44,413 nucleotides of DNA, from IMG/VR virus record IMGVR_UViG_2657245588_000005, one strand, 5' to 3'. Of this stretch, positions 4,146 through 17,160 are shown piece after piece (positions within the stretch are counted from its first letter, which is position 1; every line of letters begins with the position of its first letter). The notes beneath the pieces were generated by a model that ran no database searches, was not told the origin of the DNA, and saw only the letters and a list, made by a program, of their open reading frames with translations. A program made the position numbers and the translations under genes. The DNA is from a virus. Taxonomy: Duplodnaviria; Heunggongvirae; Uroviricota; Caudoviricetes.

Positions 4146-4330
4146 TGTGCACATCCTTTTGGCATCAGACGTAAACGGGCCAGCATTGAAACAATGCATA
4201 CTTTATTTAATAACTCCCGTTCGTGTTTTCTTTTGTTAATGGCATCTTCAGTAAATACAGGATTACTGATAGTGACACCAATTTCAAAACAACCTTCAGA
4301 CGTATTAACGTTTGGTAATAACGTTTTCAT
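4142..4330 (-). CDS. dicB: Cell division inhibitor DicB
   Basis: 62-aa product 'MKTLLPNVNTSEGCFEIGVTISNPVFTEDAINKRK...LARLRLMPKGCAQ' matches the recalled Qin DicB sequence; GAGGG RBS upstream; dicF-like sequence immediately upstream on the same strand. Confidence 0.75.
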   Translation of the reverse strand: MKTLLPNVNTSEGCFEIGVTISNPVFTEDAINKRKHERELLNKVCIVSMLARLRLMPKGCAQ

Positions 4331-4499
4331 TATCGCGCCCTCAACAATGAGTTTTGTGATGCGGTGCCTGGTGCCTCCAGGTGACGTTAACCAGTTAACA
4401 ATTAACGCCGGATACAGAGAATCCACCCATAACACTGTTTTTGGTTTTAACTGTTCCGCGTGCGCTTAGCCGCATTCACCGCATCACAAAATTCACTTT

Positions 4500-4557
4500 A
4501 AAAAGGGCGGCAGAGCAGTCACGGAGTAAAACTGATACCGCCAAACGTCACCAGAAA
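4500..4557 (-). ncRNA. dicF: DicF small RNA (about 53 nt plus U-tail; ftsZ-targeting sRNA of the dicB operon)
   Basis: Minus-strand sequence UUUCUGGUGACGUUUGGCGGUAUCAGUUUUACUCCGUGACUGCUCUGCCGCCC followed by UUUUU (GC stem plus U-run terminator); matches recalled DicF and lies where dicF sits in Qin, between ydfC and dicB. Confidence 0.65.
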
Positions 4558-4898
4558 ATTGATAACAGAGGGCGTTGCAGTGGGGTTGTCACTTAAGCGT
4601 ATGGTCAACCTGACAACCCGGTGTCCTCAACGGGGGAAGGAATAACCCCGCCATACTTACCGCCGCGCCATTTCGCGGATTGCCACAACCGGAAGCGCAC
4701 GGTCGACGAAAATTTAACGACAGGCTATCTATGAACCAGCTACCTCGCCGTGCGCTTTCGCGTTATGGTCTGACTTTTCAGGGAAATATCCTTTCAGTAA
4801 ACTGTCAGTGCCGGATGCTCACCCGTGTCCGGCGCACGCACTCCACCTCACCCGTGGAGAACTCCTTAATTACCAACCTTAGCTTCGTTGGTTATCTA

Positions 4899-5117
4899 TT
4901 AACGCGGGTATGTAATCATTCTGGCAATGCTTAATGCCGCTGCTTTTTCCAGCCTGGTGATATCCTGCTCCAGAGCGGACAGATTTTCAGCCTGCTTAGC
5001 CCTGGCTTCATTGGCCCATTTCAAATCCTGCGCTGCATTAATTTTCTGGCGCATCCACTCATAAAGTTCATCATCGGTATAGTCTGGCGCGATGATGACG
5101 GGTTCTCGTTTCTGCAT
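4899..5117 (-). CDS. ydfC: YdfC-like small protein of the dicB operon
   Basis: 72-aa ORF with AAGGAG RBS; assigned by position upstream of dicF-dicB as in Qin; function unknown. Confidence 0.5.
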   Translation of the reverse strand: MQKREPVIIAPDYTDDELYEWMRQKINAAQDLKWANEARAKQAENLSALEQDITRLEKAAALSIARMITYPR

Positions 5118-5188
5118 GTCGGCTCCTTGTGGTTAGCGTTGCCTGCTTTTAACCACGTCAGGCGAGGTGGTATCCTCTGAGGGGTCTG

Positions 5189-5545
5189 TTACTCGAGAGG
5201 AAATTGGTTATGAATACAATCAAGTTTTCTTGCCCAGAATGTGGTGGCGAAGTCTTTGACACATCCTTTAAACCGCAGGGCTCTGACAGTTTCGCGGGAG
5301 CCATCTGCAAAAATTGTGGTCACCTTGTAACTGAAGATGAGTCCTCGCAGTTTGATGACGAAATCGTTGACAATATCTTCGGTGCACTCACCAGAGACTT
5401 TCTGAAGTAAAGGCGCATACCGCTTAGTTACCGCTCTGATAATTCTTACCTGTCCGGCAATGGCGCTGATATCAATATAAAGCGCCATCGCTGTTTCTTT
5501 GCTGATCCCTGGACGCCTTCCATTCTGATGTTTGACTTCGCCCAC
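5189..5545 (-). CDS. Alternative hypothetical protein (118 aa) downstream of cI on the same strand (rex/sieB-equivalent position)
   Basis: GTG start at 5543-5545 with AGAGGA 7 nt upstream; same orientation as the repressor. Mutually exclusive with the plus-strand zinc-ribbon ORF; codon-position composition does not separate them. Confidence 0.3.
   Translation of the reverse strand: MGEVKHQNGRRPGISKETAMALYIDISAIAGQVRIIRAVTKRYAPLLQKVSGECTEDIVNDFVIKLRGLIFSYKVTTIFADGSRETVRALRFKGCVKDFATTFWARKLDCIHNQFPLE
5210..5410 (+). CDS. Small zinc-ribbon protein (CPECGG...CKNCGH) with acidic tail; hypothetical
   Basis: 66 aa from ATG 5210 with GAGAGG RBS at 5195-5200; two CxxC pairs about 20 residues apart; possible hairpin plus T-run downstream (5460-5500). 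Overlaps the alternative minus-strand ORF 5189..5545; only one is likely real. Confidence 0.35.
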   Translation: MNTIKFSCPECGGEVFDTSFKPQGSDSFAGAICKNCGHLVTEDESSQFDDEIVDNIFGALTRDFLK

Positions 5546-5841
5546 TGAGAAATCCTCTGTTTCCCCTTAACGCCGGGGTAGCGGAACAAAAACCTGCTGC
5601 ATAGTTATTAAAGTTGAACCCTGCCGTCATGTTCTTACGCCTCGGGCTGGCTACTTAACCCCTGACCACTGCCTGGTAACTCGAAGTATTGCCCTGCATT
5701 CTGTAGGATGGGGTGAGGGAATGAATGAAGTTTAGAAAAACGAACTTTTCAGGTCAATGTTTTTTTATCAAAACATTTTAAGCAGGCAGCTGTTAAGCCA
5801 TCACCACGATGGCATACAGTTAATCAAATAGATGAGGTTGG

Positions 5842-9518: not shown

Positions 9519-9687
9519 TTTTGGTTCAACTAAATACAACGTCAGTTTTGAAGAATGGCATGAACTGTTAATGGACTATGCAGAGTTACGTGGTGGCAGT
9601 GCTGCTGATGCTGAAGCATGGCGTGATGATTATGAAGCAGGAAAAACTCCGGTCGAAGCATATTGTGATGAGTGGGGCGATGAATGA
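9511..9687 (+). CDS. Small hypothetical protein (58 aa, MADFGSTKYNVSFEEWHELL...)
   Basis: Not in the ORF track (under 60 aa); ATG 9511 with GAGGAAG RBS; stop overlaps the next start (ATGA). Confidence 0.4.
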   Translation: MADFGSTKYNVSFEEWHELLMDYAELRGGSAADAEAWRDDYEAGKTPVEAYCDEWGDE

Positions 9688-9941
9688 GCGAGGTTAATTA
9701 TCAGGAAGGGCATGAAACGGCGGGGCAAGCAAAAACAGTGGCATGGCGATATCGCTACGTGAAAAAAAAGGCGTTACGGACTTTCAGGAGAAGTAGTGGT
9801 CTGGTGACTGGAAATATGTACCGAAAAAAGAGGATTGTAACGACAGGCCGAACTATGAAATTCAGGCCTTATTCACTGCCCCGCCAGTCCCGGTTACATC
9901 AGAAGAACTGGTTAAAGCTGTGCACTTTTATGAACAACTAA
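9684..9941 (+). CDS. Hypothetical small protein; reading frame ambiguous (possible frameshifted or nonsense-interrupted gene)
   Basis: ATG 9684 is coupled to the upstream stop, but after the A8 run (9762-9769) this frame becomes Arg/Lys-rich junk-like, while the -1 frame (9797-10000) encodes a protein-like 67-aa segment behind an in-frame TAG at 9794. Confidence 0.3.
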   Translation: MSEVNYQEGHETAGQAKTVAWRYRYVKKKALRTFRRSSGLVTGNMYRKKRIVTTGRTMKFRPYSLPRQSRLHQKNWLKLCTFMNN

Positions 9942-10170
9942 AACGCGAAAATCCACCAGCATCCGGAAACCTGATTACAGATTCCCAGATAAGGCAATGA
10001 GCTACCTGGCGCAGAACGGGCTGATAAGTATGGGGAATGTTTTACGATGAATATTTAGACTAAAGAGTTTGTAACGCTATGTAAGTGATTTTTTCTGGTT
10101 TAGATATTTATATGTTCGGCCAAATTGAGGTGTGTTTAAATGTAATTGCACATTGATTGTAGGAGGAATA

Positions 10171-10350
10171 ATGAAAAACGCATTGCAGTTTTTGTTTGTT
10201 GCGTTCTGGTTGTTCGTATCATGTATGCCCATCATCTTCACAGCAAGGTATATGGAAAAAGTTGATGTTTTGATATTAATATTTGGATATATAAATGCCC
10301 TTTTTTTAGGGGTGTTCATGGCGGTCATGTGCATTGAATACTGGCGGTAA
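10171..10350 (+). CDS. Small hydrophobic membrane protein (59 aa, two predicted TM segments)
   Basis: ATG 10171 with perfect AGGAGG RBS; AT-rich promoter-like region upstream; sequence 'MKNALQFLFVAFWLFVSCMPIIFTARYMEKVDVLILIFGYINALFLGVFMAVMCIEYWR'. Confidence 0.5.
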   Translation: MKNALQFLFVAFWLFVSCMPIIFTARYMEKVDVLILIFGYINALFLGVFMAVMCIEYWR

Positions 10351-10609
10351 ATACAGCGAACGCCATTGGTTTAGTTGGATATTTACTGTGCCGGACAAAA
10401 ACGGTTTGCGGGGAAATCTTAGTTAAGTAGAATGACTGCGGGTGCTTGAGGCTATCTGTCTCAGGCATGAACACCAAAAGGCAGATAGAGAAAAGCCCCA
10501 GTTAACATTACGCGTCCTGCAAGACGCTTAACATTAATCTGAGGCTCAATCTATGAACGGCAAATCTAGGTTAGCCTCTTACGTGCCGAAAGGCAAGGAG
10601 AAGCAGGCT

Positions 10610-10765
10610 ATGAAGCAGCAAAAGGCGATGTTAATCGCCCTGATCGTCATCTGTTTAACCGTCATTGTGACGGCACTGGTAACGAGGAAAGACCTCTGCG
10701 AGGTACGAATCCGAACCGGCCAGACGGAGGTCGCTGTCTTCACAGCTTACGAACCTGAGGAGTAA
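10610..10765 (+). CDS. hokD: Hok/Gef-family type I membrane toxin (HokD/RelF-like)
   Basis: 51 aa 'MKQQKAMLIALIVICLTVIVTALVTRKDLCEVRIRTGQTEVAVFTAYEPEE'; AAGGAG RBS; in-frame upstream extension from 10553; intrinsic terminator downstream. Confidence 0.8.
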   Translation: MKQQKAMLIALIVICLTVIVTALVTRKDLCEVRIRTGQTEVAVFTAYEPEE

Positions 10766-10834
10766 GAGACCTGGCGGGGGAGAAATCCCTCGCCACCTCT
10801 GATGTGTCAGGCATCCTCAACGCACCCGCACGTA

Positions 10835-10860
10835 ACCCGCTTCGGCGGGTTTTGTTTTTT
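10835..10860 (+). terminator. Rho-independent terminator after hok
   Basis: ACCCGC-TTCG-GCGGGT hairpin followed by TTTTGTTTTTT. Confidence 0.7.
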
Positions 10861-10932
10861 CCTGGCATTCTGGTTTACAATTCGCACGCCAGCCTGAACA
10901 ACTGGCACCTGCTGCGCCAGCAGAGACAACCG

Positions 10933-11139
10933 ATGGCGCACGATACCAAATTACACAATTCTAATGATTCTGCCGTCTTTGCCAGTAGGTGCGGACGGCG
11001 TTTTCACGCATTCAAATCAGACTGGTTCCAGCATCCTCCATGCACTGAAGAGCAGGCGGAATGGATAATTCAGTGTTACCGCAGGCGCGGATACGAGGTT
11101 AAGAAAGCTCTTAGCCTCGACTACCGTCACTGGATAATC
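10933..11139 (+). pseudogene. nin-region small gene interrupted by the IS66-family insertion (5' portion)
   Basis: ORF from ATG 10933 runs into the IS left end at 11140; after the IS is removed the frame continues 23 codons to a TAA at 13672-13674, which overlaps the RBS of the next gene. Confidence 0.5.
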
Positions 11140-11220
11140 GTAAGCGTCGTCTCAGCACCGTCTGGCAGATCCTGAAATTCCTGAGAGAATAGTGGACACC
11201 AAATATGGTGGACGCTATCC

Positions 11221-11625
11221 ATGAAATCATTAACCGCAGTGCGTAAAAAAAGCCCTAATTATCCCGTTGAGTTCAAAATCAAAATGGTTGAACTCTCGCA
11301 TCGACCAGAGATCTCCGTAGCGCAACTCGCTCGTGAGCATGGGATCAACGATAATTTGCTGTTCAAGTGGCGCCAGTACTGGCGCGAAGGAAAACTACGT
11401 CCTCCTTCAACAACAGAAAACAACGTGCCTGAGCTGCTCCCGATAACACTTGATGCCGAAGATGTTGTCCCTACAACCTCCCCCCGGTCACAACCTGTAG
11501 CTGCTGCGACACCTGAATCACTCAATATCAGCTGTGAAGTGACGTTCCGGCACGGATCACTCCGTCTGAATGGTGCCATCAGCGAAAATATCCTGAACCT
11601 GCTGATACGGGAGCTCAAACGTTGA
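11221..11625 (+). CDS. IS66-family accessory protein TnpA (orf1)
   Basis: 134 aa with N-terminal HTH-like region; first ORF of the IS66 arrangement. Confidence 0.8.
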   Translation: MKSLTAVRKKSPNYPVEFKIKMVELSHRPEISVAQLAREHGINDNLLFKWRQYWREGKLRPPSTTENNVPELLPITLDAEDVVPTTSPRSQPVAAATPESLNISCEVTFRHGSLRLNGAISENILNLLIRELKR

Positions 11626-11969
11626 TCCCATTACCATCAGGGACAAAGATCTGGCTGGTCGCTGGCATCACCGATATGAGAAACGGCTTCAACGGCCTGG
11701 CGGCAAAGGTGCAGACGACGCTGAAAGACGATCCGATGTCAGGTCACGTTTTTATCTTCCGTGGGCGTAATGGCAGTCAGGTAAAGCTCCTCTGGTCTAC
11801 CGGCGATGGACTGTGTCTGCTGACCAAACGGCTGGAGCGCGGCCGCTTCGCCTGGCCGTCAGCCCGGGATGGCAAAGTGTTCCTCACACCGGCACAGCTG
11901 GCGATGCTGCTGGAAGGTATCGACTGGCGGCAGCCTAAAAGACTGCTTACGTCCCTGACTATGTTGTAA
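11622..11969 (+). CDS. IS66-family TnpB (orf2)
   Basis: 115 aa; overlaps orf1 stop; conserved IS66 orf2 size and position. Confidence 0.8.
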   Translation: MIPLPSGTKIWLVAGITDMRNGFNGLAAKVQTTLKDDPMSGHVFIFRGRNGSQVKLLWSTGDGLCLLTKRLERGRFAWPSARDGKVFLTPAQLAMLLEGIDWRQPKRLLTSLTML

Positions 11970-12017
11970 GCCTCTTTATCCTAGTCGACGCTGAATGAGC
12001 CTGGTAATATACCCGGT

Positions 12018-13553
12018 ATGAGCAGCTCACTTCCTGACGATATCAATGCACTGAAACGTCTCCTTGCCGAACAGGAGGCGCTGAACCGTGCCCTGCAGGA
12101 AAAGCTGAACGAGCGTGAACGCGAAATAGACCATCTGCAGGCACAGCTGGATAAGCTGCGCCGGATGAACTTCGGCAGCCGCTCGGAAAAAGTCTCCCGT
12201 CGTATCGCACAGATGGAAGCTGACCTGAAGGCACTTCAGAAAGAAAGTGATACCCTTACCGGTCGGGTTGACGACCCGGCCGTGCAGCGCCCGCTGCGTC
12301 AAACCCGCACCCGCAAACCGTTCCCCGAATCACTCCCCCGCGATGAAAAACGGCTGCTGCCGGCAGCGTCATGCTGCCCGGAATGTGGAGGCTCGCTGAG
12401 CTATCTGGGTGAGGATGCCGCTGAACAGCTGGAGCTGATGCGCAGCGCCTTCCGGGTTATCCGGACTGTACGTGAAAAGCATGCCTGTACTCAGTGCGAT
12501 GCCATCGTGCAGGCCCCCGCGCCTTCACGGCCCATCGAGCGGGGTATCGCAGGACCGGGGCTGCTGGCCCGCGTGCTGATCTCAAAGTATGCAGAGCACA
12601 CCCCGCTGTACCGCCAGTCTGAAATGTACGGCCGCCAGGGCGTGGAGCTGAGTCGTTCACTGCTGTCGGGCTGGGTGGATGCATGCTGCCGGCTACTGTC
12701 ACCGCTGGAAGAAGCGCTTCAGGACTATGTGCTGACTGACGGTAAGCTCCATGCTGATGACACGCCTGTCCCGGTGCTGTTGCCAGGCAATAAGAAAACG
12801 AAGACCGGGCGGTTATGGACCTACGTTCGTGACGACCGTAACGCCGGGTCAACGCTGGCGCCGGCGGTGTGGTTCGCTTACAGCCCGGACAGAAAAGGCA
12901 TCCATCCGCAGACCCATCTTGCGGGGTTCAGTGGTGTACTGCAGGCGGATGCATACGCCGGGTTCAACGAGCTGTACCGGGATGGCCGGATAACGGAAGC
13001 CGCCTGTTGGGCTCACGCCCGCCGTAAAATCCACGATGTGCACGTTCGCACCCCGTCAGCCCTGACGGAGGAAGCGCTGAAACGGATCGGCGAACTGTAC
13101 GCCATCGAGGCAGAGATAAGGGGAATGACGGCGGAGCAGCGCCTTGCCGAACGTCAGTTGAAAACGAAACCGCTGCTGAAATCCCTGGAAAGCTGGCTGC
13201 GTGAAAAGATGAAAACCCTGTCGCGACACTCAGAACTGGCGAAAGCGTTCGCATACGCCCTGAACCAGTGGCCGGCGCTGACGTACTATGCAGATGATGG
13301 CTGGGCTGAGGCGGACAATAACATCGCTGAAAATGCGTTGCGGATGGTCAGTCTGGGCCGCAAAAACTACCTGTTCTTCGGTTCGGATCATGGAGGAGAG
13401 CGGGGAGCGCTGCTGTACAGCCTGATCGGGACGTGCAAACTGAACGGAGTGGAGCCAGAAAGCTACCTCCGCTATGTCCTTGACGTCATAGCCGACTGGC
13501 CGATAAACCGGGTCGGCGAACTGCTCCCCCTGGCGCGTAGCACTGCCGACTGA
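12018..13553 (+). CDS. IS66-family transposase (TnpC, DDE)
   Basis: 511 aa with N-terminal coiled coil, CxxC zinc-finger region and DDE core, typical of IS66 TnpC. Confidence 0.88.
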
Positions 13554-13675
13554 ATAACACATCCCCGTCAATACGGTTCTTGCTGCACGCTTACGGATAA
13601 TCTCAGTCAGACTCCCTTACTCCGAACGCCCACCGCGTTCATCCCGCACATACCAGCAACGGATCTGGAGGTAAC

Positions 13676-16076: not shown

Positions 16077-16152
16077 GGCCCTTTAGCTCAGTGGTGAGAG
16101 CGAGCGACTCATAATCGCCAGGTCGCTGGTTCAAATCCAGCAAGGGCCACCA
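16077..16152 (+). tRNA. tRNA with CAT anticodon (Met or lysidine-modified Ile2; phage ileZ-like), with encoded CCA
   Basis: 76 nt folds by hand into a cloverleaf: 7-bp acceptor stem GGCCCTT/AAGGGCC, D-stem GCTC/GAGC, anticodon loop CTCATAA, T-arm GCTGG-TTCAAAT-CCAGC, 3' ACCA. Confidence 0.85.
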
Positions 16153-16494: not shown

Positions 16495-16694
16495 ATTGTC
16501 TGGCTGCCGGAGAATTTGTTAAAAATTACATCGCATGGTGAATCCCCCTCAGCGGCGGGGCATCTGGCAAAGTGTATGATCCAGAGAACATGCAAATTCA
16601 GTAGACAGGCTGAATTTACCGGGAGGCCCCTGGCACCATGCGACAGACAGAAATTAGGCTATACTTCAGCCCCTCTCCGGAGGGGCTTTTCTGT
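16495..16694 (+). repeat. Structured element copy 1 (shared 5' and 3' arms, ends in an intrinsic terminator); candidate sRNA or late-leader module
   Basis: Shares with copy 2 the 5' block 'attgtctggc.gccgg...tttgttaaaaa..tcgcatggtgaatccccc' and the 3' block 'gaattcaccgggaggc.cc.ggcaccatgc...cagcccctctccggaggggct' followed by T-run; 5' GGTGAAT is complementary to 3' ATTCACC. Confidence 0.6.
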
Positions 16695-16961
16695 GCAGGA
16701 TGTGTCACAGTTTCCTGAATTCTGAGTACTGTCCTGTTACTCAGGGTGCTATATTTTCTGACGTGATGAAAGTCTGCCGGAAGGCGGAACGTATCGGAAA
16801 TGACCCAGTAGAGAAAACGTTGACTCAGATACCGATGCTGAGTTACCGGGAAACCGGCATCACATGACCGCTATCCTTCCAGGCTCGCTCCGGCGGGCCT
16901 TTTTACTGCAGAAAACAGTTTTCCCGTAAAATGCCACGTTGCTCATAATTCAGGCTGGCGA

Positions 16962-17160
16962 TTATTGTCTGGCCGGCGGGAAGTTTGTTAAAAAATTTCG
17001 CATGGTGAATCCCCCTGTGCGGAGGGGTAATCAGCGAGTAGGTATATGGGATAATCGCGGATTCAGGTGCTGGTACTGAATTCACCGGGAGGCACCCGGC
17101 ACCATGCAATGGCACATAGCGCCACTCTCCAGCCCCTCTCCGGAGGGGCTGTTTATATTG
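16962..17160 (+). repeat. Structured element copy 2 (diverged middle, same ends and terminator)
   Basis: Same conserved 5' and 3' blocks and the same terminator hairpin CCCCTCTCCGGAGGGG as copy 1. Confidence 0.6.

What the first reader, a model, noticed from the sequence alone, without database searches (positions are those of the whole stretch)
9950..10860. Self-contained toxin-like moron in the nin region: small two-TM membrane protein plus a Hok-family toxin
An AT-rich promoter-like region (about 10040-10160) precedes a 59-aa hydrophobic protein with a perfect AGGAGG RBS, followed about 260 bp later by a Hok/Gef-type toxin gene and a strong intrinsic terminator. In K-12 Qin, hokD sits behind relBE; here there is no relBE and the upstream partner is an unrelated small membrane protein. 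The usual mok reading frame is not obvious, since the upstream extension of hok is in-frame, and no sok antisense is evident by eye. Whether this hok is regulated, and whether the small membrane protein is itself a toxin or exclusion factor, is open.
Basis: partly seen in the sequence, partly recalled or inferred. Interest (0 to 1): 0.5.

Follow-up and report, generated by a model that had tools for sequence, protein, structure and literature searches.

The report
Ordinary hokD/sok locus plus orphan membrane gene
The "toxin-like moron" is a textbook hok/mok/sok toxin-antitoxin locus, the undisrupted form of E. coli K-12 hokD, lying next to a separate, probably real but uncharacterised 59-residue membrane-protein gene found only in Escherichia prophages.

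Summary

The hok unit (10405-10857) is a complete canonical hok/mok/sok type I toxin-antitoxin locus:
- Rfam sok/hok-leader hit of 112 bits.
- 92% DNA identity to the annotated, experimentally validated hokW/mokW/sokW of phage 933W/Sp5.
- Own promoter, and an in-frame 70-codon mok, which is the normal mok arrangement.
- Sok on the opposite strand (about 10561 to 10491) with a TTGCCT-17-TAACCT promoter.
- Predicted tac/fbi, ucb/SD and dcb/SD pairings that reproduce the published mRNA switch.

HokD is 100% identical to K-12 HokD. K-12 keeps only the part from 14 nt upstream of hok, a known relBE-associated rearrangement.

The small ORF is a separate unit. It matches no described family and is absent from the RefSeq annotations I checked. 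A 41%-identical, gap-free 59-aa paralogue exists in phylogroup B2 strains, also next to a hok remnant. Between the two, only this frame stays open and dN/dS is about 0.23, so it is probably a real gene of unknown function. No promoter of its own was detected.

Low interest overall.

The parts
9684..10050 (+). Context: frameshifted remnant of the upstream nin-region gene. The intact homologue is 171 aa (PHROG 660, function unknown). Its stop, TGA at 10048-10050, marks the left edge of the AT-rich spacer.
   Evidence: RefSeq marks it 'frameshifted; internal stop' in strain M217. The intact version is in strain E-1246 and matches phrog_660 at 2.4e-74.
10051..10170 (+). AT-rich spacer upstream of the small ORF, carrying the Shine-Dalgarno AGGAGG at 10161-10166. 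No convincing sigma-70 promoter.
   Evidence: GC 0.33-0.35. Promoter scans found nothing usable. The SD is AGGGGG in 2 of 5 alleles.
10171..10350 (+). 59-aa orphan small membrane protein, predicted to be a two-helix hairpin (helices 2-24 and 31-58). Residues invariant in the 10-sequence family alignment include W13, S17, C18, P20-I22, T24, F38, G39, N42-L44, E56, W58 and R59; G47, F49 and I55 are invariant in at least 90% of sequences.
   Evidence: ORF. No match in Pfam, PHROGs, NCBIfam, PADLOC or PDB. 41%-identical gap-free paralogue P0037/P0043. Only frame open in both copies, pN/pS 0.49, dN/dS about 0.23, Fisher p = 4e-4. AlphaFold2 pLDDT 72.
10405..10433 (+). hok mRNA promoter: -35 TTTGCG/TTGCGG (10405-10411) and -10 TAGAAT (10428-10433), with the inferred +1 at about 10440.
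   Evidence: Relaxed hexamer scan. Homology to the 933W hokW module starts at about 10398, just upstream. The Rfam model begins at 10440.
10440..10857 (+). Full-length hok (mok-hok) mRNA. Elements: tac 10440-10451; ucb 10493-10500; Sok-target hairpin about 10502-10539; mok SD GAGGCU 10541-10546; dcb 10573-10578; hok SD GGAG 10597-10600; fbi 10815-10827; terminator hairpin 10834-10851 plus T-run.
   Evidence: Rfam RF01794, 112 bits, at 10440-10615 on the hok-sense strand. The minimum-free-energy fold of the full-length RNA pairs tac with fbi and the mok SD with ucb. 3'-truncated RNAs ending at 10815 or 10800 pair tac with ucb and the SD with dcb; one ending at 10810 did not switch. Terminator.
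10553..10765 (+). mok: a 70-codon reading frame that is an in-frame N-terminal extension of hok and translationally coupled to it.
   Evidence: Same coordinates by alignment as the annotated mokW of 933W. K-12 mokC and hokC also share a stop. PHROG 251 'MokW-like host killing' at 7.7e-33.
10610..10765 (+). hok toxin gene (HokD, 51 aa).
   Evidence: Pfam HOK_GEF 3e-23. 100% identical to K-12 HokD. RefSeq annotation 'type I toxin-antitoxin system toxin HokD', WP_000813254.1.
10491..10561 (-). Sok antisense RNA, about 71 nt. Its 5' tail is complementary to the mok start region and is followed by a long terminator-type hairpin.
   Evidence: Mapped from the annotated sokW misc_RNA of 933W through alignment A1. 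Predicted fold -31.5 kcal/mol. sokW was shown experimentally to neutralise HokW (PMC8621323).
10568..10596 (-). Sok promoter: -35 TTGCCT (10596 down to 10591), 17-nt spacer, -10 TAACCT (10573 down to 10568).
   Evidence: Read from the minus-strand sequence. This stretch is invariant between the window and 933W. The position fits the annotated sokW 5' end, 7 nt downstream of the -10.

Best explanation
Two adjacent but separable units lie in the nin-equivalent region of a Qin-like lambdoid prophage.

Unit 1 (10405-10857) is a complete, canonical hok/mok/sok type I toxin-antitoxin locus. It is the undisrupted form of K-12 hokD.
- A stable hok mRNA is made from its own promoter. It is kept untranslatable by 5'-3' (tac/fbi) pairing, with the mok Shine-Dalgarno sequestered by ucb.
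- Slow 3' trimming removes fbi. tac then pairs with ucb, which frees the mok translation-initiation region.
- Mok translation would then drive Hok translation, unless the short-lived antisense Sok RNA binds the mok start region and triggers RNase III cleavage.
- If Sok supply stops, Hok (a membrane-depolarising peptide) is made.

The sequence elements and predicted pairings are shown here. The RNA decay kinetics, RNase III step and killing are inferred from R1 hok/sok and from the 92%-identical hokW/sokW.

Unit 2 (10171-10350) is a genuine but uncharacterised 59-aa inner-membrane helical-hairpin protein. Its family is restricted to Escherichia/Shigella lambdoid prophages. It is most likely expressed by read-through of the early-right (nin) transcript rather than from its own promoter. 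My best guess is that it acts at the inner membrane as a small phage accessory or modulator protein, not as a partner that Hok requires. The gene's reality is supported by evidence. Its expression route and function are inference.
For: hok/sok:
- Rfam RF01794 at 112 bits, E = 6.5e-25, and Pfam HOK_GEF at 3e-23.
- 92% identity to 933W mokW/hokW/sokW, with the Sok body and promoter region nearly invariant.
- Promoter hexamers for hok and sok.
- Predicted folds give tac-fbi plus SD-ucb in the full-length RNA, and tac-ucb plus SD-dcb in the truncated RNA. This is the switch described for R1 (PMC9841398).
- HokW toxicity and sokW antitoxin activity are experimentally shown (PMC8621323).
- K-12 retains only 10596-10859. 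This agrees with the report that relBE integration truncated an ancestral 70-codon hokD (PMC6379469).
- hok genes are known to be enriched in prophages (bioRxiv 10.1101/2025.08.07.668861).

Separate units:
- The hok module occurs with unrelated upstream neighbours in 933W, mEp460, Tritos, Rac-442/2 and 689R5.

Small ORF is real:
- A paralogue of identical length with 41% identity and no gaps, while the flanks need many gaps to align.
- It is the only one of six frames open in both copies. pS 0.70 against pN 0.34, Fisher p = 4e-4. Amino-acid identity exceeded in only 386 of 20000 column shuffles.
- ATG, TAA and an SD-like purine run are present in both copies.
- Intact in all 80 IMG/VR loci and in nearly all of more than 1000 contigs of each subfamily.
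- AlphaFold2 predicts a two-helix hairpin.
Against: For the small ORF:
- Within-lineage polymorphism shows no purifying selection: 5 nonsynonymous to 1 synonymous site in 80 loci, and 4 of 4 nonsynonymous among 5 genome alleles.
- Only two diverged lineages exist, so the dN/dS test rests on one pairwise comparison, and the permutation p is only about 0.02.
- NCBI's RefSeq annotation does not call the gene in any record I inspected.
- No promoter was detected, and I found no expression data.
- Its function is unsupported by any homology.

For hok/sok:
- Promoter strength, transcript ends and Sok activity were not measured for this allele.
- The 5' tail of this Sok differs from SokW at the mok start region.
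- One of the three 3'-truncated RNAs I folded (ending at 10810) did not adopt the open conformation.
- Chromosomal hok loci have been reported not to mediate post-segregational killing (cited).
Confidence: 0.8

Rival explanations
1. The small membrane protein and Hok form one functional two-gene membrane-targeting cassette, with the small protein acting as a co-toxin, an immunity or modulator of Hok, or an exclusion factor expressed together with hok.
For: Every locus examined has the hok leader directly downstream of the small ORF: 76 of 76 informative IMG/VR loci, 52 with complete hok and 24 cut at the hok ATG by an IS. The diverged B2 paralogue also sits about 55 nt upstream of a hok 3' remnant (80.6% identity, E = 5.6e-12). 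No terminator separates the two genes.
Against: The linkage amounts to only two independent lineages; all other copies are 95% or more identical by descent. The hok module has its own promoter and occurs widely without this ORF. In B2 strains the small ORF stays intact although hok, mok and sok are deleted, so it does not depend on hok. In K-12-type Qin the hok coding sequence sits several kb away, behind relBE.
Confidence: 0.12
2. The 59-codon ORF is not a gene. It is a chance open frame in a T-rich, AT-rich spacer, whose sequence is conserved for other reasons such as recent common descent or DNA- or RNA-level function.
For: RefSeq annotation never calls it. Some phage annotations call the opposite-strand ORF instead. 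Within-lineage substitutions are mostly nonsynonymous. There are no homologues outside Escherichia/Shigella among 1.84 billion representative proteins. No promoter was found. T-rich DNA readily encodes hydrophobic peptides.
Against: Between the two diverged copies, start, stop and length are preserved with no indel over 180 nt, while both flanks need many gaps. All five other frames contain 2-9 stop-containing codons across the two copies. Identity by codon position is 34, 42 and 28 of 59 (second highest, third lowest), and pN is below pS with p = 4e-4. The opposite-strand ORF is closed in the paralogue.
Confidence: 0.2
3. The small ORF is itself a type I toxin with its own, so far unrecognised, antisense RNA, so the locus would carry two toxin-antitoxin systems in tandem.
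For: It is small and hydrophobic and lies in a prophage next to another type I system.
Against: No match to any Pfam type I toxin family at E up to 0.1. No terminator-like or promoter-like site on the minus strand around it. No Rfam hit in 10051-10400 apart from chance-level ones. It has two TM helices, whereas known type I toxins, to my knowledge, mostly have one. It persists intact in a decayed B2 remnant where no partner is evident.
Confidence: 0.05

Closest known systems
hokW/mokW/sokW of Stx2 phage 933W / Sakai prophage Sp5 (type I toxin-antitoxin system, experimentally validated)
   Same: 92% DNA identity over window 10397-10829. Same promoter region, tac, Sok body, Sok promoter, in-frame 70-codon mok, 51-aa Hok and fbi. 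Also located in a lambdoid prophage.
   Different: The first codons of mok, and therefore the 5' tail of Sok, differ (alignment A1 columns 173-187). A few C-terminal Hok residues differ. The sequence after the fbi diverges. The genomic position differs: here it is the nin-equivalent region of a Qin-like prophage, and the upstream neighbour is unrelated.
hokD (relF) of cryptic prophage Qin, E. coli K-12
   Same: The Hok protein is 100% identical. Homology of 98% runs from 14 nt upstream of the hok ATG through the terminator (10596-10859). Same prophage type: dicB-dicF-ydfC on one side and the ydfU (DUF968) and Q genes on the other, seen in the 99.97%-identical M217 prophage.
   Different: K-12 lacks the hok promoter, tac, mok start and sok, and has relBE immediately upstream. 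This window has the intact locus and no relBE. In K-12-type relatives (ATCC 8739, PhiR42_1) the left half of the locus, including the small ORF and sok, ends at 10611 against an IS. The rearrangement is already published (PMC6379469).
hok/sok (parB) of plasmid R1, the paradigm
   Same: All named regulatory elements (tac, fbi, ucb, dcb, mok SD GAGG, overlapping mok, antisense Sok covering the mok start) are identifiable and give the predicted closed-to-open switch (against PMC9841398).
   Different: Prophage rather than plasmid location. Only distant sequence similarity; HokW is reported as 44% identical to R1 Hok. Post-segregational killing has not been shown for chromosomal loci.
Small phage-encoded two-TM membrane proteins (for example class II holins/pinholins, small superinfection-exclusion proteins). 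This comparison is for the 59-aa ORF only and is analogy from my own knowledge.
   Same: Size, two predicted TM helices, a small-residue zipper-like motif in TM2 (G39, A43, G47), and a prophage location.
   Different: No sequence or profile match to any holin or other family. There is no charged C-terminal tail; the protein ends ...IEYWR. TM1 is strongly hydrophobic. The gene lies far from the lysis cassette. Structure search gives only non-specific hairpins (best E = 0.86).

Membership tests
[quoted passage not shown] | Hok/Gef-family toxin peptide of about 50 aa | tested here: met
   Pfam HOK_GEF 3e-23, 81.6 bits against a cut-off of 22. Identical to K-12 HokD.
[quoted passage not shown] | Overlapping mok reading frame with its own SD, starting upstream of hok | tested here: met
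   The 70-codon ORF 10553-10765 has GAGG 7 nt upstream. It is co-linear with annotated mokW and in frame with hok, as K-12 mokC is with hokC.
[quoted passage not shown] | Antisense Sok RNA with its own promoter, overlapping the mok translation-initiation region | tested here: met
   Maps to 10561-10491 on the minus strand by alignment to sokW. Promoter TTGCCT-17-TAACCT and a hairpin of -31.5 kcal/mol. This is computational only; the transcript was not observed.
[quoted passage not shown] | Conserved hok mRNA leader structure | tested here: met
   Rfam RF01794 covariance model, 112.4 bits against a gathering score of 59, full model length, on the hok-sense strand.
[quoted passage not shown] | tac/fbi long-range 5'-3' pairing and the ucb/dcb switch after 3' processing | tested here: met
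   Minimum-free-energy folds. Full-length RNA: 10440-10451 pairs with 10815-10827, and the SD with 10494-10500. RNAs truncated at 10815 or 10800: tac pairs with 10493-10499, and the SD with 10573-10578. An RNA truncated at 10810 kept the SD paired with ucb.
[quoted passage not shown] | Hok toxicity neutralised by Sok; killing or growth arrest when Sok decays | not testable with these tools
   Shown for the 92%-identical hokW/sokW (PMC8621323). Not shown for this allele.
Moron (autonomous promoter-gene-terminator insert in a phage genome) comprising the small ORF plus hok | Own promoter directly upstream of the first gene | tested here: inconclusive
   0 consensus promoter sites in 9900-10950. 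In the relaxed scan the best candidates upstream of the small ORF place the -10 on its start codon. Weak or non-sigma-70 promoters cannot be excluded.
Moron (autonomous promoter-gene-terminator insert in a phage genome) comprising the small ORF plus hok | The unit moves as one block between otherwise syntenic phage genomes | tested here: not met
   The hok module alone (from about 10398) is shared with 933W, mEp460, Tritos, Rac-442/2 and 689R5, which have other upstream neighbours. The small ORF persists without a functional hok in B2 strains.
Moron (autonomous promoter-gene-terminator insert in a phage genome) comprising the small ORF plus hok | Atypical base composition and a terminator at the 3' end | tested here: met
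   GC 0.33-0.35 over the spacer and small ORF. Terminator at 10834-10851, although this terminator belongs to the hok mRNA.
Type I toxin (for the 59-aa ORF) | Match to a known toxin family, or an overlapping or adjacent antisense RNA gene | tested here: not met
   No Pfam, NCBIfam, PHROG or PADLOC match. No minus-strand promoter or terminator sites, and no Rfam hit above chance in 10051-10400.
Holin/pinholin (for the 59-aa ORF) | Holin family match, charged cytoplasmic C-terminal tail, position in the lysis cassette | tested here: not met
   No profile match. The C-terminus is ...CIEYWR. In the 99.97%-identical M217 prophage the holin and lysozyme genes lie about 5 kb downstream.

The most novel reading that the evidence does not exclude
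The 59-aa helical-hairpin protein and its B2 paralogue define a new family of prophage small membrane proteins functionally tied to hok loci. For example, it might modulate Hok insertion or pore formation, or act as a second membrane-active factor in lysis or exclusion. That would explain why both diverged copies sit directly upstream of hok, and why the gene is kept intact in a prophage remnant where everything around it has decayed.
Probability: 0.1. Interest if true: 0.55.

Novelty: already known. Interest (0 to 1): 0.22.

Why it matters
The Hok part adds nothing new. It is a clean example of the intact hokD/mok/sok locus from which the K-12 relBE-hokD arrangement was derived.

What remains is a probably genuine 59-aa membrane protein that the RefSeq annotation skips. 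One subfamily is present in about 29% of complete E. coli genomes (1569 of 5426) and the other in about 19% (1045 of 5426). If it is expressed, it adds one more uncharacterised small membrane protein to the E. coli prophage repertoire, and it is a cheap target for tagging and toxicity or exclusion assays.

Tried and rejected
- Profile searches of the small protein against Pfam, PHROGs, NCBIfam, PADLOC and PDB sequences found nothing.
- The afdb50 fold library was unavailable. The BFVD fold search returned only generic hairpins, best E = 0.86.
- A profile search with both subfamilies found no third subfamily. The exhaustive HMMER scan of 1.84 billion representatives found only the two subfamilies plus low-complexity noise.
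- The genome-contig scan gave only two Shigella copies and one degraded E. coli copy with frameshifts. That copy was uninformative.
- Literature searches for the peptide strings returned no papers.
- Within-lineage dN/dS has too little diversity and looks neutral.
- I looked for a third, analogous small hydrophobic ORF upstream of other hok modules. Only a non-homologous 30-aa ORF in mEp460 and Tritos turned up. I recorded it as a side observation, not as evidence.
- The minus-strand 85-aa ORF (10077-10334), annotated 'hornerin' in two phage records, was rejected because its frame is closed in the paralogue.
- A sub-threshold Rfam isrK hit on the hok 3' UTR (27 bits against a gathering score of 50) was not pursued.
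Full report
**Observation**

- GC drops to 0.33-0.35 across 10000-10300.
- A 59-codon ORF (10171-10350, MKNALQFLFVAFWLFVSCMPIIFTARYMEKVDVLILIFGYINALFLGVFMAVMCIEYWR) follows AGGAGG (10161-10166).
- 259 nt downstream, a Hok gene (10610-10765) matches Pfam HOK_GEF at 3e-23.
- A hairpin at 10834-10851 plus a T-run is the only terminator-like site in 9900-10950.
- No relB or relE is present anywhere in the window, and the Hok peptide is 100% identical to K-12 HokD.
- The 'promoter-like' label for 10040-10160 rests on AT-richness alone. Neither the standard scan nor a relaxed hexamer scan finds a usable sigma-70 site upstream of the small ORF.

**The hok unit is canonical**

Homology:
- The Rfam model RF01794 ('sok', in practice the hok mRNA leader, since it matches the hok-sense strand and ends on the hok ATG) hits 10440-10615 at 112 bits over its full length.
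- Window 10397-10829 is about 92% identical to the mokW/hokW/sokW locus of phage 933W.
- In that locus mokW (213 nt) and hokW (156 nt) share a stop codon, and sokW is annotated antisense across the mokW start.

Transferred through the alignment, the elements are:
- Sok = about 10561 down to 10491 on the minus strand.

K-12 mokC, hokC and sokC have the same geometry: a shared stop, and sokC overlapping the mokC start by 9 nt. An in-frame mok is therefore the normal arrangement, not an anomaly.

Promoters read from the sequence:
- hok: TTGCGG-16-TAGAAT (10406-10433), 7 nt before the mRNA 5' end at 10440.
- sok, on the minus strand: TTGCCT (10596-10591), 17 nt, TAACCT (10573-10568), 7 nt before the annotated Sok 5' end.

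RNA folds:
- The 418-nt full-length RNA (10440-10857) pairs its 5' end (tac, 10440-10451) with 10815-10827 (fbi). The mok Shine-Dalgarno (10541-10546) pairs with 10494-10500 (ucb).
- With the 3' end removed (RNAs ending at 10815 or 10800), tac pairs with 10493-10499 and the SD pairs with 10573-10578 (dcb). A third truncation, ending at 10810, kept the SD paired with ucb.
- This closed-to-open switch is the one described for R1 hok mRNA (PMC9841398).

Supporting literature:
- HokW toxicity and its neutralisation by sokW expressed from its own promoter have been shown experimentally (PMC8621323).
- hok loci are known to be enriched in prophages (bioRxiv 10.1101/2025.08.07.668861).

**Relation to K-12**

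- K-12 Qin shares only 10596-10859 with this window, that is, from 14 nt upstream of the hok ATG to the terminator. relE lies immediately upstream there.
- In ATCC 8739 and phage PhiR42_1 the left part (small ORF, hok promoter, leader, sok) is present but stops at 10611 against an IS. It is followed by ydfW, flxA, ydfV and relBE.
- 24 of 76 informative IMG/VR loci have this same break, and 52 of 76 have the intact locus.
- The window therefore carries the undisrupted locus. The literature already states that relBE integration shortened an ancestral 70-codon hokD (PMC6379469).
- The exact 911-nt segment is common. 290 RefSeq records have a best match at 99% identity or more, all 25 listed hits are 100% identical over the full length, and 1068 of 5426 complete E. 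coli genomes hold at least 80% of it.

**The two genes are separate units**

- Homology of the hok module with other phages begins at about 10393-10421. That is just upstream of, or at, the hok promoter, and downstream of the small ORF.
- In 933W, Rac-442/2 and 689R5 the annotated upstream neighbours are unrelated. In mEp460 and Tritos the upstream interval has no annotated gene at all, and none of the ORFs I extracted upstream of hok in these five phages matches the small-ORF family.
- No terminator lies between the small ORF and hok, so read-through into hok is possible, but hok does not depend on it.

**The small ORF**

Database status:
- No match in Pfam, PHROGs, NCBIfam, PADLOC or PDB sequences.
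- Named only 'hypothetical' or 'putative membrane protein' in sequence databases.
- Not called in any of the RefSeq records inspected.
- Two phage records call the opposite-strand ORF instead.
- The DNA segment is present in 1569 of 5426 complete E. coli genomes, always at 95% identity or more.

The paralogue:
- An exhaustive HMMER scan found one diverged relative, P0037/P0043. It is also exactly 59 aa, is 41% identical and aligns without gaps.
- It occurs in 1045 genomes. The strains listed (CFT073, Nissle 1917, 536, ST131) are ones I recognise as phylogroup B2.
- It lies in a prophage remnant of about 1.5 kb next to ttcA, which to my knowledge is the Rac attachment site, between an integrase fragment and a DUF1627 fragment.
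- About 55 nt downstream of it is the 3' half of a hok gene (80.6% identical to 10678-10739, with an internal stop). The hok promoter, leader, sok and 5' half are deleted.

Evidence for coding, from comparing the two copies:
- Start, stop and length are preserved with no indel, while both flanks need many gaps to align.
- The ORF's frame is the only one of six without stops in either copy.
- Identity by codon position is 34, 42 and 28 of 59.
- pS is 0.70 against pN 0.34, giving Jukes-Cantor dN/dS of about 0.23 and Fisher p = 4e-4.
- Amino-acid identity exceeds column-shuffled alignments in all but 386 of 20000 trials.
- I take this as good, though not conclusive, evidence for a real gene.

Evidence that does not help:
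- Shallow polymorphism looks neutral: 5 nonsynonymous to 1 synonymous site in 80 IMG/VR loci, and 4 of 4 nonsynonymous among 5 genome alleles.
- The B2 ORF is invariant among the four complete-genome alleles compared.

Structure:
- AlphaFold2 predicts a hairpin with helices 2-24 and 31-58 at pLDDT 72.
- Fold search returns only generic hairpins.
- Family-wide invariant residues (W13, S17, C18, P20-I22, T24, F38, G39, N42-L44, E56, W58, R59), with G47 conserved in at least 90% of sequences, include a G39/A43/G47 small-residue spacing in helix 2.
- The charge distribution suggests both termini face the cytoplasm (my inference).

**Mechanism and rivals**

- The hok/mok/sok mechanism can be stated with high confidence by homology and predicted structure.
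- For the small protein I commit only to an inner-membrane hairpin protein, most likely expressed with the early-right (nin) transcript and acting as a small accessory membrane factor.
- A functional partnership with Hok is possible, because both diverged copies adjoin hok and 76 of 76 loci keep the hok leader downstream.
- That partnership rests on two lineages only. It is weakened by hok modules that lack the ORF, and by the ORF surviving without hok.
- A chance ORF remains possible (about 0.2). A second type I toxin is unlikely: no antisense signals and no family match.

**Verdict**

The finding is largely ordinary. It is a known, canonical, widespread hokD/mok/sok locus in its ancestral form, plus an adjacent orphan small membrane-protein gene of unknown function. 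The second is a modest annotation-level novelty.

Noticed in passing
window 11140-13594: A 2455-bp IS66-family element (HTH_Tnp_1 ORF at 11221-11625, TnpB_IS66 ORF at 11622-11969) is inserted relative to the otherwise 99.97-100% identical prophage of strain M217. The junctions overlap by 8 bp, consistent with a target-site duplication. It interrupts the small gene downstream of hok that is annotated 'hypothetical' or 'toxin to Rem' elsewhere.
   Followed up: partly
window 10596-10611; loci L003, L005, L072-L077: In K-12-type Qin relatives an IS abuts the hok start codon at 10611, while K-12 hokD homology resumes at 10596 behind relBE. The two junctions therefore share 16 bp. 24 of 76 IMG/VR loci carry this split, which leaves an orphan sok with the hok leader next to the small ORF.
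   Followed up: partly
L011 829-1008 and 1063-1124; L012 (CFT073) about 4253-5570: Strains I recognise as phylogroup B2 (CFT073, Nissle 1917, 536, ST131; 1045 genomes have this segment) hold a prophage remnant of about 1.5 kb at ttcA. It consists of integrase and DUF1627 fragments, an intact 59-aa paralogue of the small ORF, and a hok 3' remnant. RefSeq annotates nothing there.
   Followed up: yes
window 10077-10334, minus strand: An 85-aa ORF antisense to the small ORF is annotated as 'hornerin' or 'hypothetical protein' in phage records ON470612 and PV340562. Its frame contains stops in the paralogous locus, so it is probably a mis-call.
   Followed up: yes
window 9684-10050: The gene upstream of the small ORF is a frameshifted pseudogene here. 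The intact 171-aa form (PHROG 660, function unknown) exists in strain E-1246.
   Followed up: partly
window 10774-10855, + strand: The hok 3' UTR (fbi plus terminator) gives a sub-threshold Rfam hit to the Salmonella prophage sRNA IsrK (27 bits against a gathering score of 50, E = 0.002). This hints that IsrK-like sRNAs may derive from hok 3' ends.
   Followed up: no
window 10748-10751: Hok codon 47 is TAC followed by G. TACG is, from my own knowledge, the sequence context edited by TadA. A recent preprint reports Tyr-to-Cys A-to-I recoding in hokB and a similar event in hokC, hokD and hokE, so this allele may also be editable.
   Followed up: no
L019 1386-1478 (mEp460) and L021 1385-1477 (Tritos): Immediately upstream of their hok modules, both phages have an unannotated 30-aa strongly hydrophobic ORF (MVLVLKCALAI[TA]AVMAIYCLA[IV]VLMDRLSD). 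It is unrelated to the 59-aa family. This may be a second case of a small hydrophobic ORF next to hok, or chance.
   Followed up: no
window 4505-4556 (-), 16077-16149 (+), 16503-16696 (+), 16972-17160 (+): Other Rfam hits above the gathering score: DicF sRNA, one tRNA, and two tandem copies of the sRNA STnc100. The STnc100 copies lie downstream of the position of the Q antiterminator gene as annotated in the 99.97%-identical M217 prophage.
   Followed up: no
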